A stretch of DNA of 11,676 nucleotides from Promethearchaeia archaeon (GTDB lineage: Archaea > Asgardarchaeota > Lokiarchaeia > Sigyniarchaeales > SOKP01). The position numbers and the translations under genes were made by a program. Where the stretch lies: the NCBI GenBank assembly GCA_046497275.1, contig JAWOFX010000185.1, positions 1 through 11,676 of the forward strand, read 5' to 3'. Below the pieces are notes generated by a model. The model did not search any database, was not told where the DNA came from, and saw only the letters and a program-made list of their open reading frames with translations. This document shows positions 1-9,629 of this stretch, piece after piece. Numbering within the stretch: position 1 is the first letter of the stretch; each line of letters starts with the position of its first letter.

Positions 1-282
1 AAACCAATTTTGAAAGAAGAGCAAGGAAAATTTTATCAGAAGGGATTCATTTTTTCAGATGTCGGAGAGAGCCAAATCGCTCCATATGTGAGTGAGTTAG
101 AAGAAAGAAATCCAGAATTATGGATTAAAACACATCCTAGAGTAGGATTAGCTGTAGAAGTTGAGATTTCAATCACATGTTTTGATAAACCCAAATGTGA
201 AGAATTGATAAATAAAGTGTTAGATAAATTAAAGAATATTGTCCAAAATATAGGTGGAACAATTAAAAAAAAGTATGAATAA
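1..282 (+). CDS. 3' end (5'-truncated) of a probable archaeal CinA-like / molybdopterin-binding-domain protein
   Basis: The frame is open from base 1 (KPILKEEQ...) to TAA at 280-282. The segment 'GESQIAP...EL...PELWIKTHP' resembles the C-terminal 'ESxxAP...IKSHP' domain of archaeal CinA-like proteins. Only the tail is visible. Confidence 0.55.
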   Translation, partial: KPILKEEQGKFYQKGFIFSDVGESQIAPYVSELEERNPELWIKTHPRVGLAVEVEISITCFDKPKCEELINKVLDKLKNIVQNIGGTIKKKYE

Positions 283-331
283 AAAGAGTTCAATTCCTTT
301 ATTGATTAATAAAACAAGGGATAATTAAATT

Positions 332-409
332 TTGATGACACCTTGCGGGTGTTAATACTCGATAAGCTCTCGCAATTTATTGCGTTTCAGTTTATTTCAT
401 CGTCATCAA
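332..409 (-). promoter_or_regulatory. Putative SECIS element in the selD 3' UTR
   Basis: Starts immediately after the selD stop. On the - strand: AUGAA (400-396) and CGAG (361-358) form a non-Watson-Crick core. Helix AUAAACU (395-389)/AGCUUAU (368-362) pairs 6 of 7. Unpaired GAAA at 388-385. Apical stem CGCAA/UUGCG with a UAAA loop (384-371). Outer closing stem UUGAUG (409-404)/CAUCAA (337-332). It follows a gene with an in-frame UGA at the catalytic position. Confidence 0.75.
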
Positions 410-1441
410 TTAATATTTTGTTATTTCTAAAAATTCAACATCATCAGATACTCTAACAACACCAGGTTTTTTTTTATCTATAGTTCCAACAATCCAATTT
501 GGCACATTTGAGTTTGAGAGGGTATTTGTGAATTCTTCAATCATTTTATTATCGATAGCTAAGAGCATACCACCAGCGGTTTCATGTGCTCGACATTCTT
601 CAAAGGCGTATCCTAAATCAGCAGATAATTCTCTTGAGAGGTTAATAGAAGGAACCCTCTCAATAATCGCCGAGAGATTTGAATGTTGGAGTAACTCTTT
701 TGTATGACCGGCTAAGCCAAAGCCAGTTATATCTGACATAGCGTGAACAAATGAAAAATCTTTGAATGAATGGATTGCTTTCACTACATCTTGATTGGGT
801 GTGGTCATAACTTTAATCGCTATATCAATGGATTTTTGTAGCTCAGTGTTAGAATATGTTTCTAGAATTTCTGGCATATCCTTCAAAACACGATAAGCAG
901 CCATAACTCCTTGTAGACCAATCGGTTTAGTAATTACTAATTTATCCCCATTTCTAACTCCACTCTTCCTTATAATGATATCTTTATCTACGATACTCGA
1001 GGCTTCACCACCCATTAAAGGCCAATCGCAATATATAGTGTGTCCTCCGACTACTTTTGAGTTAATCTTATTCTCCATAAAGTGTTTGATACCATTAAGA
1101 ATTCCTTCAGCAATTTCAGTGGGTGTATTTGTATTAATTGCTAAAAAGACAAGCATTCCCCCGTTGATTTCAGGTACATTCATAGCAAAGATATCATTTG
1201 TAACATTACATGCCGTAATTTCTCCTTGAATTTCTGGTTCATCAATAATCGGGGTGAATATATCTAAATTTTTCACTAAAACCATATTTGTTTTTAAGAT
1301 TGGAATAACGGCGGAATCTTCAATATCTCTCGCTAAACCTGTTCTCTGAAGAAGATTCTCTAAGCTATCTGGTCCGAGTTTACATGATCATCCGTGAATT
1401 TTTACCTGTGATGTGAGTCTATATTCGTTCTCTTTAGACAT
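410..1441 (-). CDS. selD: Selenophosphate synthetase (selenide, water dikinase), selenocysteine-containing; 343 aa with Sec18
   Basis: ATG at 1441, with GAGGT just upstream, is in frame with the 410..1285 ORF. It reads MSKENEYRLTSQVKIHG-[TGA 1390-1388]-SCKLGPDSLENLL...EDSAVI...KNLDIFTPIIDEP. G-U-x-C-K is the SelD active-site motif. Further SelD/PurM-fold motifs: DIFTPIIDEP, NDIFAM, GGHT, GDKLVITKPIG, DITGFGLAGH, ETAGGMLLA. Confidence 0.93.
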
Positions 1442-1524
1442 CAACCTCAGTCCTTTTTTTTCATTAACTTATATTATTTTATTAAATTAATTTATTTTTA
1501 AAATTTCTAATAGAGGAATTTAAA

Positions 1525-5963: not shown

Positions 5964-8924
5964 TTATGAGAGAAGTAAATCAATCTTTTTGGTTAATCTC
6001 TTATGAAGATCAAAAGGTCCTTTGTAATGAATTATCAATCCAATTTCATCATGGGTATTACTAGCAAGATTTTTTTTTATATCTTTATCAATATGTAAAA
6101 GATATTTAAATTTAAAGTTATTTCCTGTTTTTAACTCAGAGACTTGAAAATATCTGGGAAAACTTTTATCTTTTAATATTTCAATATATTCTGGAATACG
6201 GAGAGTGATTTGCAAATCTTTAAAATCATAATTTGAAGGATTATTCAACCTTAGATTAATTTCCAATTGATTAATCATAGATTTAATATTTTTAAATACT
6301 TTAATTTCTTTAATATCACCTATATCTGATTGCAATTTAGCGGAATAAATTGAATCATCAATTATTTTGGCATCTAATTTCTTTTTATTAATGTATGTTA
6401 ATGTTCGTTCCTTTATTTGTGAATTGTTAAGTCCCATATAATTTGAGAGAAGATCAAAATTGATAGGATTCACAATTTTAAGATAATGGTTTATTTGTTT
6501 AAGATATAGTTTATCTCTACCTTTCTTGACGAATTTCTTTGACTTAAGAATTAATAACTCCTTAGAAGTGTTCCATTTCTCCATAAAAGGTTTAATATAT
6601 AAATCAAATCCATTTTGACCTTTCTTAAAAATTTCGTCCTTTTCTATGATACTTTCAATTTGTTGCTCCGTATCGTCGATAAAAGAATTAATCTGATTTG
6701 AATGAGTTTCAATAAGTTTCTTAGCTTCCTCAAATCCACCCTTTTTTATGAGTAAATCTAACTTTGACTCTAACTTATCAAAATTTTTATTAAATTTTTT
6801 GATCCCTTCAATTCCGTATGAAATAATTGATTGGATATGACCTTGAACGATTTGAAATGTTAATTCTTCACTTAATCCATCGATCTCATCATATTTTGTA
6901 ATTTGTTCTGATAAATCAACTGCAGATAAATCGCTTATTATCTTTTGTTTCATATCTTTAATTTCTCGATCTAAATTGTTTAAAAATATTTGAATTTCTA
7001 TTTTAACTGCCACCCAGCTGCTTAATAGTTCTTTAAATATGTCATCAAACTCAACATTATTGATCAACATTTCCCGGATATCTACATCTAATTTAAATAA
7101 ATTCCTTCGGAGAAGGGAAATGTAATTAAAATTCTCATGAAACGAGGATTCTGGATACCATTCTATATTTTCAATATTCTCTTTTTTGACGATATTCTCA
7201 TCTAATGATTTGCGCTTTATATAATCAAATTGGGCTTTAAGGATATCAATTCTGTCCATTAAAATATTTATTTTTATTTGAAGATTGGATTTATATTCTT
7301 GTTTTTTCTCCTCGCAAATATTTGATATAAATCCTTTTATAATACTTAACTCATCAATGATCTGAATCTTAGTTTCTTCCCATTCTTCAATTAAATCAAA
7401 AGCTAATCTTTTATATTCAAACCGATTTATTTCCTTATGAAATTCTTGAATATCTTTGATTATATCGTCATACATTTGGTTTAATTGTATTTCTGTAGTA
7501 GTAAATTTGAAACTCTTAATGTATGAATTAAGTTTCCGCCTGAATTCAACCGGAATCTTTTGAAATTCAAGAATTTTGTCCTCAAAATTAGAAAGTTGTT
7601 TGTTTATTTTCTCGATATATTCCTCAATATGAGGATATTTATCATTAATTTTCTCTAATGTGTAAATGATTTCCTTCCTAATTTCCAAGTCATTTTCTTG
7701 ATCTAATTTATTATTCAATTCAATAGTTATCCAAAGAGCCATTTTTCTACTTTCTAATATGAGACAAATATTTTGAAGAAGTTGTATAGTTTTTTTACGC
7801 TTTCTCCAATATTTTGATTCCAATTTATATACTATTCTTGTTATCTCATTCTCTATTTCAACTTGATATTCATCAAAGAGACGTCTAAAAACTAATTCAA
7901 TAGTCGCTCTAACATTTTCAGAAGGATTTTCTAATTCTTCAAATAAGTAAGGAAAAATAAAATCAATATGATTTTGAGATATTTGATAAAGAGCATTGCT
8001 CAAGGAATTTTTAAATATATTATCGCTTGATTCTGAAATAGAATGTATTAAATTGGCCCATATTTGTTCAAAATTATTTTTTGATATATTAATTAAAGCG
8101 TCAATTACTTTTACTTGAATTCGAAAGTTCTTATTTTTCAAAAATTTAATGATCTTGGGAATAAATGGAATTATTTCTGAAGATTTTTCTTTCCCAATTT
8201 CTCCAAAGAGCCAGAATACTAGTTCTTTCACCCTGGACTCTTCATTGTAAAGGAGATTTAACAAAATATAGAATATCTTTTCCTTTGAAAGAAAGTAATT
8301 TCCAAGAATCCTGAGAAGTTCAGCAGAAGCCCTTGCCACATCATCATCGTTATCTCTTAAATTGATAATAACCATAGATAATAATGGTTCAATTTCTTTA
8401 ATTTTGGTATAATCTTGATTTATAATGTCTATTGTAGTATTTATTACGGATAATTTTACTTTCCAATCATTATCCATTAATTTTTCGGTATATTCGTTTA
8501 GTATCTCTTGTAAAATTTGTGAATCTATATGAAGGGACAAAATTAGATTTCCAATAATCTTAACTGCCAGTCTTCGTACAGGTGGATCGCTATCGAATAA
8601 TCGAGATCTAATATCAGTTAAGTACTCTATTAATAAATTCGGTCTATATATTGCAATTTGATAGATAATCTCAAGAGCTATTAAACGAATCCAAGAATCT
8701 TGATCATTAATAAGAGGTGATACATTTTTAATTGCTTTTAGCGATATCTTTGGAGATTTATCGCAGATTATATTCAGAAGATTAAGACAGTTTAAAAGGA
8801 TTTCTTTATCATCACTGGATGAAAATACCTCTATCGCCTCAAATATCTCATCTGTGGCCTTATCATACTTTCCTTCTAAAATATATCCTTCAATGTCTTT
8901 AATATCCAAATTTAAAATCCGCAA
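5964..8924 (-). CDS. Large HEAT-repeat (alpha-solenoid) protein with helical middle, C-terminal winged-helix/PCI-like segment and beta-sandwich domain (986 aa)
   Basis: About 10 HEAT-like repeats in the first ~430 aa ('LINDQDSWIRLIALE', 'LFDSDPPVRRLAVK', 'LMDNDWKVK', 'LRDNDDDVARASAE', 'LENPSENVRAT'). The middle is charged and helical. The C-terminus has alternating beta-strand patterns ('LEINLRLNNPSNYDFKDLQITLRIP'). The start codon is TTG and uncertain; an in-frame TAA just upstream rules out a longer extension. Confidence 0.8.
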   Translation of the reverse strand: MRILNLDIKDIEGYILEGKYDKATDEIFEAIEVFSSSDDKEILLNCLNLLNIICDKSPKISLKAIKNVSPLINDQDSWIRLIALEIIYQIAIYRPNLLIEYLTDIRSRLFDSDPPVRRLAVKIIGNLILSLHIDSQILQEILNEYTEKLMDNDWKVKLSVINTTIDIINQDYTKIKEIEPLLSMVIINLRDNDDDVARASAELLRILGNYFLSKEKIFYILLNLLYNEESRVKELVFWLFGEIGKEKSSEIIPFIPKIIKFLKNKNFRIQVKVIDALINISKNNFEQIWANLIHSISESSDNIFKNSLSNALYQISQNHIDFIFPYLFEELENPSENVRATIELVFRRLFDEYQVEIENEITRIVYKLESKYWRKRKKTIQLLQNICLILESRKMALWITIELNNKLDQENDLEIRKEIIYTLEKINDKYPHIEEYIEKINKQLSNFEDKILEFQKIPVEFRRKLNSYIKSFKFTTTEIQLNQMYDDIIKDIQEFHKEINRFEYKRLAFDLIEEWEETKIQIIDELSIIKGFISNICEEKKQEYKSNLQIKINILMDRIDILKAQFDYIKRKSLDENIVKKENIENIEWYPESSFHENFNYISLLRRNLFKLDVDIREMLINNVEFDDIFKELLSSWVAVKIEIQIFLNNLDREIKDMKQKIISDLSAVDLSEQITKYDEIDGLSEELTFQIVQGHIQSIISYGIEGIKKFNKNFDKLESKLDLLIKKGGFEEAKKLIETHSNQINSFIDDTEQQIESIIEKDEIFKKGQNGFDLYIKPFMEKWNTSKELLILKSKKFVKKGRDKLYLKQINHYLKIVNPINFDLLSNYMGLNNSQIKERTLTYINKKKLDAKIIDDSIYSAKLQSDIGDIKEIKVFKNIKSMINQLEINLRLNNPSNYDFKDLQITLRIPEYIEILKDKSFPRYFQVSELKTGNNFKFKYLLHIDKDIKKNLASNTHDEIGLIIHYKGPFDLHKRLTKKIDLLLS

Positions 8925-9036
8925 GATCTGATAATGTTATAATGCTAGAATTTTTATCCTAATAATATAAAAATGCTTTAATAATTGTTTCTACTTGAAA
9001 GTGATAATCTGGTTTTAATTTCCAAAATTAGAGCTT

Positions 9037-9080
9037 AAAAACAAAAAGAAAAAGGTTTTCAAAAATGAAAAAAATAAAAT
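9037..9080 (-). terminator. Possible oligo-U terminator after the MaoC gene pair
   Basis: Several T5-T7 runs on the - strand directly after the TGA at 9083-9081. Confidence 0.4.
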
Positions 9081-9629
9081 TCATTTATTAAGTTCGATAA
9101 TAGCTGTCCCTTCAGTTGCCACTCGTTCTCGGTAAGTCAGAATTCCTCCATCAACGTCCTTGGTAAAGACCAGCCCCTTTTCATGATCCTTTTCTGTGAC
9201 ATATCCTCTCTCTCCCGCTTCGAATTGCTCAATAATATTAGCATCACTGTCCCGAATATCAACTGGAGTGATTGTTCTCTGGACAACATCCAAAAATACT
9301 TTATTCTTCTCTATTTTTTTAACAGTAGCTTCTGTAATTAAATTATCTCCACAACGTACCATACCGCGCATATCTACATCAATTTCAATTAGGGCTCCAT
9401 CTCTCTCACCATTCAGAAAGTCTTCAAATAATTTTGTAATAAAGCCAAAACTAAATAATCCATGAGCTATTACACCGCCCAAACCTTGCTTTTCTGCTAT
9501 ATCATCACGAGTATGGATTGGATTTGTGTCGCCGCTAGCCGACGCGTACATTTTAAGTAAATCCCGTGTGATTTGATCAAATTTATCTTTAATAACTTGA
9601 TCAACTTTTATATCAGTGATAGTTACCAT
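9081..9629 (-). CDS. MaoC-family (R)-specific enoyl-CoA hydratase/dehydratase, catalytic hot-dog subunit
   Basis: Hydratase-2 motif 'YASASGDTNPIH.....A...GLGGVIAHG' and 'MRGMVRCGDNL'. Confidence 0.87.
   Translation of the reverse strand: MVTITDIKVDQVIKDKFDQITRDLLKMYASASGDTNPIHTRDDIAEKQGLGGVIAHGLFSFGFITKLFEDFLNGERDGALIEIDVDMRGMVRCGDNLITEATVKKIEKNKVFLDVVQRTITPVDIRDSDANIIEQFEAGERGYVTEKDHEKGLVFTKDVDGGILTYRERVATEGTAIIELNK

What the first reader, a model, noticed from the sequence alone, without database searches (positions are those of the whole stretch)
358..400. 3'-UTR SECIS with a eukaryote-type kink-turn core plus an archaeal-type GAA bulge
Seen in sequence: right after the selD stop, the - strand folds into an AUGA(A)...(C)GA(G) core, a 7-bp helix, an unpaired GAAA opposite AG, and a 5-bp apical stem. 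Established: eukaryotic SECIS use an AUGA/GA tandem G.A core and unpaired apical As, classical methanogen SECIS use a GAA/A internal loop, and Lokiarchaeota are reported to have eukaryote-like 3'-UTR SECIS. Inference: this element carries both hallmarks and directs UGA recoding about 1 kb upstream, which also points to an Asgard origin.
Basis: partly seen in the sequence, partly recalled or inferred. Interest (0 to 1): 0.72.

Follow-up and report, generated by a model that had tools for sequence, protein, structure and literature searches.

The report
Three-armed SECIS element after Asgard selD
The hairpin after selD is a genuine selenocysteine-insertion signal of the eukaryote-like kind already published for Asgard archaea; it is the central arm of a larger, conserved three-armed RNA, and its "methanogen-type GAA" is a local spelling of a conserved AAA bulge.

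Summary
Observation confirmed. On the - strand, 400-358 reads AUGA-A, a 7-position helix (6 pairs plus one A.C), GAAA opposite AG, a 5-bp ministem with a UAAA loop, then C-GA-G. It lies 10 nt after the stop of a Sec-containing selD (UGA 1390-1388).

It is the type II "eSECIS-like" or SPS lokiSECIS element already described for Asgard selD (Mariotti 2016; Huang 2024). The nearest relatives are Promethearchaeota (Loki-type) MAGs.

The full element is 409-332. A closing helix starts right after the stop codon. Next come a canonical kink-turn (2-bp C helix, 3-nt loop, tandem G.A), the type II arm, and a second hairpin with a conserved YGCRA loop.

All five helices covary: 24/24 pairs change on both sides in 107 sequences, and about 90% of cells are paired against 29-54% when partners are slid. 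The architecture recurs in a second Asgard family.

The "archaeal GAA" reading is weak. The G occurs in 17 of 101 orthologous elements and in 3 of 6 genus members. AAA is invariant, and the 3' side is never a single A.

Type I SECIS with the same three-armed layout follow at least nine other UGA-containing ORFs in this genome. tRNA-Sec and EFsec are present. No SBP2-like protein was found.

This scan has noted the three-armed shape before on other DNA. Verdict: a new member of a known kind.

The parts
410..1441 (-). selD (selenophosphate synthetase, SPS) coding sequence, 343 codons, stop TAA 412-410
   Evidence: Translation with TGA=U gives one open frame with the HG-U-SCKLG motif. Pfam AIRS and AIRS_C match. 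Thirty orthologues in relatives each carry one in-frame TGA.
1388..1390 (-). Sec codon UGA (codon 18), the codon that the SECIS is inferred to recode
   Evidence: The position is conserved in all orthologues. RNA-library contigs run across it with no differing letters.
404..409 (-). P1 closing helix, 5' strand (UUGAUG), starting at the first base after the stop codon
   Evidence: Pairs with 337-332. RNAalifold predicts it independently. Covariation is shown.
402..403 (-). Kink-turn C helix, bulged strand (A403, C402), paired with U357 and G358
   Evidence: Pair 12-58 reads UA 9, AU 4, CG 2, GU 1. Pair 13-57 reads CG 14, UA 1, UG 1. In 101 sequences the inner pair is C-G 71, U-A 28, U-G 2, with none unpaired.
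397..401 (-). Kink-turn loop G401-A400-U399 and G398, A397 of the tandem sheared G.A pairs (the 'AUGA')
   Evidence: In 101 elements A is 92, U 100, G 101 and A 101. The G.A pairing itself is inferred from kink-turn rules, not shown.
389..395 (-). Helix II (NC helix), 5' strand, pairs with 368-362; A391.C366 is a mismatch in this genome only
   Evidence: The top two pairs are G-C and C-G in relatives and are paired in 101/101.
385..388 (-). 5' internal bulge GAAA: variable first base plus invariant AAA
   Evidence: First base A 50, U 33, G 17; AAA 99-101 of 101.
371..384 (-). Ministem CGCAA/UUGCG with UAAA loop (type II apical stem)
   Evidence: C-G 96/101. The second pair is mostly A-U in relatives and G-C here and in the nearest kin. 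The third pair is C-G or U-A.
369..370 (-). 3' internal bulge A370, G369
   Evidence: First base is a purine (G 66, A 32); the following bases are variable.
357..368 (-). Helix II 3' strand (368-362), C361, G360-A359 of the tandem G.A, and G358-U357 of the C helix
   Evidence: The 3' GA reads G 99/101 and A 101/101.
353..356 (-). A/U-rich linker in the non-bulged strand between C helix and hairpin 2
   Evidence: 3-4 nt in all family members.
338..352 (-). Hairpin 2 (third arm): 5-bp stem ACACC/GGUGU with pentaloop C347-G346-C345-A344-A343
   Evidence: 97.5% of cells are paired and all 5 pairs show compensatory change. In the loop G is invariant and C is 86/101. The same loop sits on an unrelated G+C-rich stem in family f9.
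332..337 (-). P1 closing helix, 3' strand (CAUCAA)
265..314 (-). Oligo-U runs after the element (314-311, 285-281, 272-265): likely archaeal termination signals, in the gap before a convergent ORF that ends at 282
   Evidence: Direct reading. The + strand ORF 1-282 has a weak CinA_KH match, E 0.0017, below the cut-off. The termination role is inferred.

Best explanation
Window 409-332 (- strand) is the SECIS element of the selD mRNA of a Loki-type Asgard archaeon. It is the type II, eukaryote-like form already described for Asgard selD.

It folds as a three-way junction. A closing helix P1 begins at the first base after the stop codon. P1 stacks on a 2-bp C helix. A 3-nt loop and tandem G.A pairs (a canonical kink-turn) turn into helix II. 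Helix II carries an invariant AAA bulge and a G+C-rich ministem. A third arm, hairpin 2 with a conserved YGCRA loop, branches from the non-bulged strand. This is the topology of a k-junction.

While a ribosome pauses at UGA 1390-1388, the folded element is inferred to recruit EFsec.GTP.Sec-tRNASec, through L7Ae or a still unknown SECIS-binding factor, so that Sec is inserted instead of termination.

Shown here: the structure, its conservation and covariation, its exclusive position behind Sec-containing selD, related elements behind other UGA genes, and the presence of tRNA-Sec and EFsec. Inferred: the G.A pairing, protein binding and the recoding itself.
For: All described letters are present.

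Sixteen orthologous 3' UTRs were scored on the five-helix structure. 90.6% of cells are paired against 30-50% with slid partners, 17/24 pairs change on both sides, and 0/500 shuffles reach the observed score. RNAalifold finds P1, helix II, the ministem and hairpin 2 on its own.

In 107 distinct sequences, 89.7% of cells are paired and 24/24 pairs are compensatory (that alignment was fitted to the model). AUGA, GA and AAA are near-invariant.

The C-helix pairs flanking a 3-nt loop covary: C-G 71, U-A 28.

The model hits once in the own genome. It hits once or twice per genome in 22/25 family members, always beside selD copies. It also finds 7/8 selD 3' ends of a second family with about 40% SelD identity at E<1e-3.

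At least nine other UGA-containing ORFs in this genome, four of them FlpD/VhuD, carry AUGA/GA SECIS that fold into the same three arms.

tRNA-Sec scores 49.4 bits, over Rfam's cut-off, and an EFsec-like gene lies 3.3 kb from it.

Contigs from RNA libraries of two studies cover selD across the UGA. They continue past the stop through the SECIS hairpin to 350 and 344 with no differing letters.

The element meets every criterion of the published type II model, and published text describes such an element for Loki SPS.
Against: No experiment here or in the papers I read shows that any Asgard SECIS works.

The one Loki element tested, vhuU.2 (a type I form), gave background activity in Methanococcus maripaludis.

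Rfam's SECIS models do not match, even on 141 bases at E<=10.

Thermodynamic folding of the single sequence gives only z -1.0 to -2.0 and does not form helix II unaided.

This genome's helix II has an A.C mismatch.

No SBP2-like protein was found; only L7Ae and L30e carry the L7Ae domain. The adaptor is therefore unknown.

The RNA-library contigs stop inside hairpin 2, so they do not show that the whole element is transcribed.
Confidence: 0.85

Rival explanations
1. Hybrid element. The apical half, meaning a G-C clamp, the NAAA/R internal loop and a G-C ministem, is the homologue and functional equivalent of the methanogen SECIS core (GAA_A 'kink-turn-like' motif). The selD element would then carry two recognition modules and link methanogen, Asgard and eukaryotic SECIS.
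For: The layout is similar. Helix II ends in G-C and C-G pairs, paired in 101/101. The loop has invariant adenines. The ministem begins C-G and is G+C-rich, CCC/GGG in families f2 and f9. In M. maripaludis the G of GAA is dispensable (AAA/A and CAA/A work), while the two As are essential and G-C clamps matter. This window and its two nearest kin do spell GAAA. Methanogen VhuD SECIS are published as carrying both AUGA/GAC and GAA_A.
Against: The loop is 4x2 here and mostly 5x3 in relatives, not 3x1. The 3' side has no conserved single A (G 66, A 32, then variable). The G is present in only 17/101. The same AAA bulge is equally the standard unpaired-A motif of eukaryotic type II SECIS, so no methanogen ancestry is needed. 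Huang 2024 treats GAA_A as a later methanogen novelty and found no AUGA_GA within eaSECIS-like structures of Asgard. No methanogen sequence could be fetched for direct alignment.
Confidence: 0.25
2. A structured 3' end unrelated to Sec. It could be a terminator or stability hairpin set, or an L7Ae-binding kink-turn that regulates selD, and only happens to sit behind selD.
For: Oligo-U runs follow the element. L7Ae is encoded in the genome and binds kink-turns in general (established knowledge). RNA-library contigs stop at 350 and 344.
Against: The same core and three-armed layout follow unrelated genes whose only shared property is an in-frame UGA: FlpD x4, small membrane, zinc-ribbon and other ORFs. 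The model hits nowhere else in 3.85 Mb. Every selD copy found at E<=1e-60 in the related genomes searched has one in-frame UGA, and a related structured element follows nearly every selD stop examined. The U runs start 18 nt after P1, not directly after a hairpin.
Confidence: 0.04
3. A box C/D small RNA, with C box UGAUGA at 408-403 and a D'-like CUGA at 390-387.
For: Sub-threshold Rfam matches to box C/D families: sR6 at 16.5 bits against a gathering score of 60, E 2.
Against: There is no 3' D box and no terminal C/D pairing. The CUGA letters are not conserved in relatives, which read CUUAAA, CCGAAA or CACAAA. The matches reflect shared kink-turn letters only.
Confidence: 0.01

Closest known systems
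SPS lokiSECIS (Mariotti et al. 2016, PMC4989117, Fig. 5), also called the type II eSECIS-like structure of Asgard selD (Huang, Xiao and Zhang 2024, PMC11227280)
   Same: Same gene, same position just after the stop, AUGA_GA core, short main stem, unpaired adenines in a bulge, an extra apical ministem and a small loop. All numeric criteria of the published type II model are met.
   Different: The main texts I could read do not mention the closing helix, the covarying 2-bp C helix with 3-nt loop, or the second hairpin with its conserved YGCRA loop. The figures and supplements were not available, so those parts may still be drawn there.
Eukaryotic type II SECIS (Rfam RF00031 SECIS_1; SBP2-bound kink-turn)
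   Same: 3'-UTR location far from the UGA, AUGA/GA tandem G.A core, AA(A) bulge above helix II, and a ministem.
   Different: Helix II is 6-7 bp, shorter than in eukaryotes by Mariotti's own comparison. Helix I is replaced by a three-way junction with a side hairpin. Rfam models do not match. No SBP2 homologue was found.
Methanogen SECIS (eaSECIS; GAA_A 'kink-turn-like' motif between two G-C clamps; Peiter and Rother 2025, PMC11881835)
   Same: 3'-UTR hairpin, an asymmetric internal loop with essential or invariant adenines, flanked by G-C pairs, with a short G+C-rich apical stem. Methanogen vhuD/hdrA versions also carry AUGA/GA at the base.
   Different: The loop size is 4x2 or 5x3, not 3x1. 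There is no conserved 3' A, and the G is variable. The AUGA/GA core is near-invariant here but absent from most methanogen SECIS. A Loki type I element does not work in M. maripaludis.
k-junction (Wang, Daldrop, Huang and Lilley 2014, PMC4005666; TPP riboswitch, H. marismortui J4/5)
   Same: [quoted passage not shown] This is the same strand topology as hairpin 2 here.
   Different: Here two Watson-Crick C-helix pairs and a 3-4 nt linker separate the G.A pairs from the branch. The three-dimensional arrangement is untested, and the function is different.

Membership tests
Asgard type II eSECIS-like element (model of Huang et al. 2024) | Core 5'-GA_[G/A]A-3', preceded by AU or GU | tested here: met
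   A400-U399-G398-A397 and G360-A359; near-invariant in 101 elements.
Asgard type II eSECIS-like element (model of Huang et al. 2024) | Upper stem 7-15 bp with at most 2 mismatches | tested here: met
   395-389 with 368-362 gives 7 positions with 1 mismatch, A391.C366. This is the minimum length allowed.
Asgard type II eSECIS-like element (model of Huang et al. 2024) | Bulge of 4-12 nt, ministem of 2-8 bp, apical loop of 2-6 nt | tested here: met
   GAAA plus AG gives 6 nt; the ministem is 5 bp; the loop UAAA is 4 nt (criteria).
Asgard type II eSECIS-like element (model of Huang et al. 2024) | Lies in the 3' UTR of a gene with an in-frame Sec UGA, in an organism with Sec machinery | tested here: met
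   selD UGA at codon 18; tRNA-Sec and EFsec-like gene present.
Asgard type II eSECIS-like element (model of Huang et al. 2024) | Directs Sec insertion | not testable with these tools
   No functional assay exists here. Support is comparative only.
Eukaryotic SECIS (Rfam RF00031 and related models) | Scores with the curated covariance model | tested here: not met
   No SECIS family at E<=10 on the whole window or on 300-440.
Eukaryotic SECIS (Rfam RF00031 and related models) | Bound by SBP2 (an L7Ae-domain protein) | tested here: not met
   Only two PF01248 proteins are in the genome. They are named L7Ae and L30e by NCBIfam. Binding itself is not testable here.
Methanogen SECIS (eaSECIS) | Asymmetric internal loop 5'-GAA / 3'-A (3x1) | tested here: not met
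   Here the loop is GAAA/AG. In relatives it is NNAAA/RNN. G is present in 17/101.
Methanogen SECIS (eaSECIS) | Two invariant adenines in the loop, flanked by G-C clamps | tested here: inconclusive
   AAA is invariant and G-C/C-G pairs lie on both sides in relatives. The same features define eukaryote-like type II elements, so they do not discriminate.
Canonical kink-turn / k-junction | C helix, 3-nt loop, tandem G.A and A.G, then NC helix; third helix inserted in the non-bulged strand | tested here: met
   The sequence pattern is present. The -1b.-1n and -2b.-2n pairs covary: C-G 71 / U-A 28, and UA, AU, CG, GU. Hairpin 2 branches from the 3' strand.
Canonical kink-turn / k-junction | Kinked three-dimensional geometry with A-minor contacts | not testable with these tools
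   Needs probing, FRET or a solved structure.
Box C/D sRNA | C box and 3' D box brought together by a terminal stem; guide regions | tested here: not met
   There is no 3' CUGA. The internal CUGA is not conserved. The best Rfam score is 16.5 bits against 60.

The most novel reading that the evidence does not exclude
The working unit of Asgard SECIS may be a k-junction rather than the published hairpin. On this reading, the kink folds helix II back along the stacked P1/C helix and hairpin 2. The invariant AAA bulge, about 9 positions above the G.A pairs, would then come to lie beside the conserved YGCRA loop of the third arm. Together they would form one docking surface for the still unidentified archaeal SECIS-binding factor or for EFsec. 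The AAA bulge with its G-C clamps would be the same module as the methanogen GAA_A motif. This would give a defined bait for finding the missing factor. It could also explain why a bare Loki hairpin fails in heterologous tests.
Probability: 0.25. Interest if true: 0.65.

Novelty: new member of a known kind. Interest (0 to 1): 0.35.

Why it matters
How archaea link a 3'-UTR SECIS to a UGA about 1 kb away is unsolved: no archaeal SECIS-binding protein is known. Asgard SECIS are the proposed bridge to the eukaryotic system.

This locus adds no new kind of element. It does give a clean, deeply sampled case (about 100 genomes and a second family) in three respects:
- The kink-turn is canonical, with a covarying C helix.
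- The conserved unit is larger than the published hairpin: it includes a closing helix that abuts or includes the stop codon, and a side hairpin with a sequence-conserved loop.
- The 'GAA' letters should not be read as a methanogen signature.

These points matter for designing reporter constructs and RNA baits.

Tried and rejected
- Rfam at permissive thresholds on the window and on 300-440 gave no SECIS family. It gave only chance-level and box C/D-like hits.
- A loose regular-expression scan of the genome for core plus helix plus a hairpin with NGCRA loop was no better than control loops (18 hits against 11-77). I dropped it as evidence. A stricter type I scan gave 45 hits, of which about 10 look real.
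- Mutual information between the hairpin-2 loop and all other columns showed only the split between the two selD paralogue classes. It gave no sign of a long-range base pair.
- Model R1 found nothing outside the own family in a 150-genome phylum sample under strict filters. That reflects a narrow model, not absence. With filters off it finds family f9.
- selD was not found with this query in 16 genomes of family f14 or 14 genomes of family f7. Many of those genomes are incomplete, so I draw no conclusion.
- I looked for Cys-type selD in close relatives as a natural control. The full-length database proteins turned out to be UGA read as W by the gene caller.
No direct alignment with a methanogen SECIS was made.
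- aragorn found no tRNA-Sec; the Rfam model did.
- RNA-library contigs gave no cover at 150-343 and ended at 350 and 344. No DNA run was laid beside them, so this is not evidence for a transcript end.
- The supplements of Mariotti 2016 are not held. I could not check whether the side hairpin is drawn there.

Full report
**The observation**

On the - strand, selD runs from ATG 1441 to TAA 412-410 and has one in-frame UGA at 1390-1388, in the motif HG-U-SCKLG.

- A400-U399-G398-A397, then A396
- a helix, 395-389 with 368-362
- G388-A385 opposite A370-G369
- a 5-bp ministem, 384-380 with 375-371, with loop UAAA
- C361, G360-A359 and G358

The only correction is that the helix holds six standard pairs and one A391.C366 mismatch.

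Folding the single sequence is only mildly better than shuffles (z -1.0 to -2.0). It recovers the ministem and an outer helix but not the weak A-U helix II. Thermodynamics alone would therefore not settle the matter.

**What is really there**

I took the 3' ends of 30 selD orthologues from related genomes; each has one in-frame TGA. The conserved unit proved larger than the flagged 43 bases. It spans 409-332 and has five helices.

| Part | Window coordinates (- strand) |
|---|---|
| P1 closing helix | 409-404 with 337-332, starting at the first base after the stop |
| C helix (2 bp) | A403-U357 and C402-G358 |
| Kink-turn loop (3 nt) | G401-A400-U399 |
| Presumed sheared pairs | G398.A359 and A397.G360 |
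| Helix II | 395-389 with 368-362 |
| Internal loop | G388-A385 opposite A370-G369 |
| Ministem and loop | 384-380 with 375-371; loop 379-376 |
| Linker (4 nt) | 356-353 |
| Hairpin 2 | 352-348 with 342-338; loop C347-G346-C345-A344-A343 |

Covariation evidence:
- On 16 sequences, 90.6% of cells are standard pairs against 30-50% when the 3' partners are slid. 17 of 24 pairs change on both sides, and no shuffle in 500 reaches the observed covariation score.
- RNAalifold, given only the alignment, predicts P1, helix II, the ministem and hairpin 2.
- The two C-helix pairs are the most telling. One reads U-A 9, A-U 4, C-G 2, G-U 1. The other reads C-G 14, U-A 1, U-G 1.

Together with the 3-nt loop and the G.A letters, this is the sequence signature of a standard kink-turn. 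The third helix leaves from the non-bulged strand, as in the k-junction of Wang et al. 2014.

**Breadth**

I built a covariance model from 14 of these sequences.
- It hits this site alone in the 3.85-Mb genome, at 80 bits; the next best is 15.9 bits.
- It hits behind selD in nearly all of 80 further loci, whose records are named Promethearchaeota or Promethearchaeia MAGs. This settles the Asgard (Loki-type) origin.
- Many genomes give two hits because they carry two tandem selD paralogues, each with its own element.

In 101 distinct elements:

| Feature | Count out of 101 |
|---|---|
| AUGA | A 92, U 100, G 101, A 101 |
| 3' GA | G 99, A 101 |
| Inner C-helix pair | C-G 71, U-A 28, U-G 2 (none unpaired) |
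| Bulge AAA | 99-101 |
| Hairpin-2 loop | G 101, C 86 |

On the model-fitted alignment of 107 distinct rows, all 24 pairs show compensatory change.

A second Asgard family, with about 40% SelD identity, has the same layout on unrelated stems. There the selD stop codon UGA is itself the UGA of the kink-turn core. P1 lies in the last codons of the gene, and hairpin 2 is a G+C-rich stem with a CGCAA or UGCAA loop. The model finds 7 of 8 of these at E<1e-3.

**The rest of the genome**

Other selenoprotein genes:
- Four FlpD/VhuD genes carry two in-frame UGA each.
- Each is followed at once by a type I lokiSECIS: AUGA, an 8-bp stem, an 11-nt A-rich loop ending in AG, then GA.
- The same holds for at least five more small UGA-containing ORFs.

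With the AUGA and GA letters held unpaired, RNAfold gives most of them the same three arms. The side hairpin usually carries a UGCGA, CGCAA or similar pentaloop.

Sec machinery:
- The genome has tRNA-Sec, over Rfam's cut-off.
- An EFsec-like gene lies 3.3 kb from it.
- Only two proteins carry the L7Ae domain, L7Ae and L30e, so there is no SBP2-like candidate.

Contigs from RNA libraries of two studies match selD with no differing letters. They cross the UGA and run past the stop through the SECIS hairpin, to 350 and 344.

**The 'archaeal GAA bulge'**

This part of the reading does not hold as stated.
- The base before the AAA is A in 50, U in 33 and G in 17 of 101 elements.
- Within the genus it is G in this genome and two others, and U, U and C in the other three.
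- The 3' side of the loop is a purine followed by one or two variable bases, never a lone A.
- The invariant AAA is what the literature calls the unpaired adenines of type II eukaryote-like SECIS. Spellings that contain G (AGAAA) are already reported for Asgard selD.

A fair caveat is that in M. maripaludis the G of GAA can be A or C, whereas the two As are indispensable and the flanking G-C clamps matter. The selD element also has G-C pairs on both sides of its loop. A common origin of the two adenine loops therefore remains possible; I give it about one in four. Methanogen VhuD SECIS that carry both AUGA/GAC and GAA_A were described in 2016.

**Mechanism**

The best-supported reading is that 409-332 is the SECIS of selD.

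Shown by the data:
- the fold and its conservation
- its tie to UGA-containing genes
- the presence of the Sec machinery

Inferred from established knowledge of kink-turns and SECIS:
- the sheared G.A pairs and the kink
- binding of L7Ae or an unknown adaptor
- delivery of Sec-tRNASec by EFsec to the ribosome at UGA 1390-1388

One consequence follows directly from the sequence. P1 starts at the base after the stop codon, and in family f9 the stop codon is part of the core. A ribosome terminating at the true stop must therefore melt the junction.

**Comparison and novelty**

The element meets every criterion of the published type II model for Asgard selD. [quoted passage not shown]

It does not match Rfam's eukaryotic SECIS models, and it fails the strict GAA_A definition of methanogen SECIS.

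The main texts of the two Asgard papers do not mention a side hairpin, a three-way junction or a closing helix. I could not see their figures or supplements.

Earlier follow-ups in this scan reported the three-armed shape on other DNA and a type II selD SECIS in another genome. I reached the structure before reading those notes, and here I tested it on selD.

Verdict: a real SECIS, and a new member of a known kind. The hybrid claim is not supported as stated. The extended architecture is the one point worth carrying forward.

Noticed in passing
L142-L149 (selD loci of a second Asgard family, f9): The selD stop codon UGA doubles as the UGA of the kink-turn core (G/A-UGA). The 5' strand of the closing helix lies in the last codons of the ORF. 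Termination at the true stop and SECIS folding should therefore exclude each other.
   Followed up: partly
L042-L109 and others; G016:C5 26607-27614 and 27932-28957; G019:C51: Many related genomes carry two tandem selD paralogues. Each has an in-frame UGA and its own three-armed SECIS. The two classes differ in hairpin 2: CCAC-YGCRA-GUGG type against CYGUU-GCAC-AACRG type.
   Followed up: partly
G000 contig C118:76013-76495 (- strand), SECIS 75955-75990: An ORF with two adjacent in-frame UGA codons (..SGC**EK..) is followed 22 nt after its stop by a type I SECIS whose side hairpin has a UGGUC loop.
   Followed up: no
G000 contigs C185:8310-8739 and 8913-9309, C100:58478-58746, C167:631-851: Small unannotated ORFs with an in-frame or terminal UGA, each with a type I SECIS that touches or overlaps the stop. 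They are two tandem ORFs on C185, a tiny membrane protein on C100 and a zinc-ribbon ORF on C167.
   Followed up: partly
window 391 and 366: Helix II has an A.C mismatch in this genome, where all 101 related elements have G-C or A-U. This may be a real weakening, a protonated A+.C wobble or a consensus error in the assembly.
   Followed up: no
G000 C33:11-129 and C165:63-181: The tRNA-Sec match is 119 nt long and sits at the ends of two contigs. On C165 it lies 3.3 kb from the EFsec-like gene. aragorn misses it. It may hold an intron or an unusually long arm.
   Followed up: no
window 1-282 (+ strand): A convergent ORF running off the window start ends at 282. It has a weak, sub-threshold CinA_KH match. 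The selD 3' UTR therefore lies in a 127-nt gap between convergent genes.
   Followed up: partly
window 344-1458: Metatranscriptome libraries labelled salt lake metagenome, from three studies, hold contigs that match selD with no differing letters. DNA runs from sediment and freshwater sediment hold 92-96% of the sampled words.
   Followed up: partly
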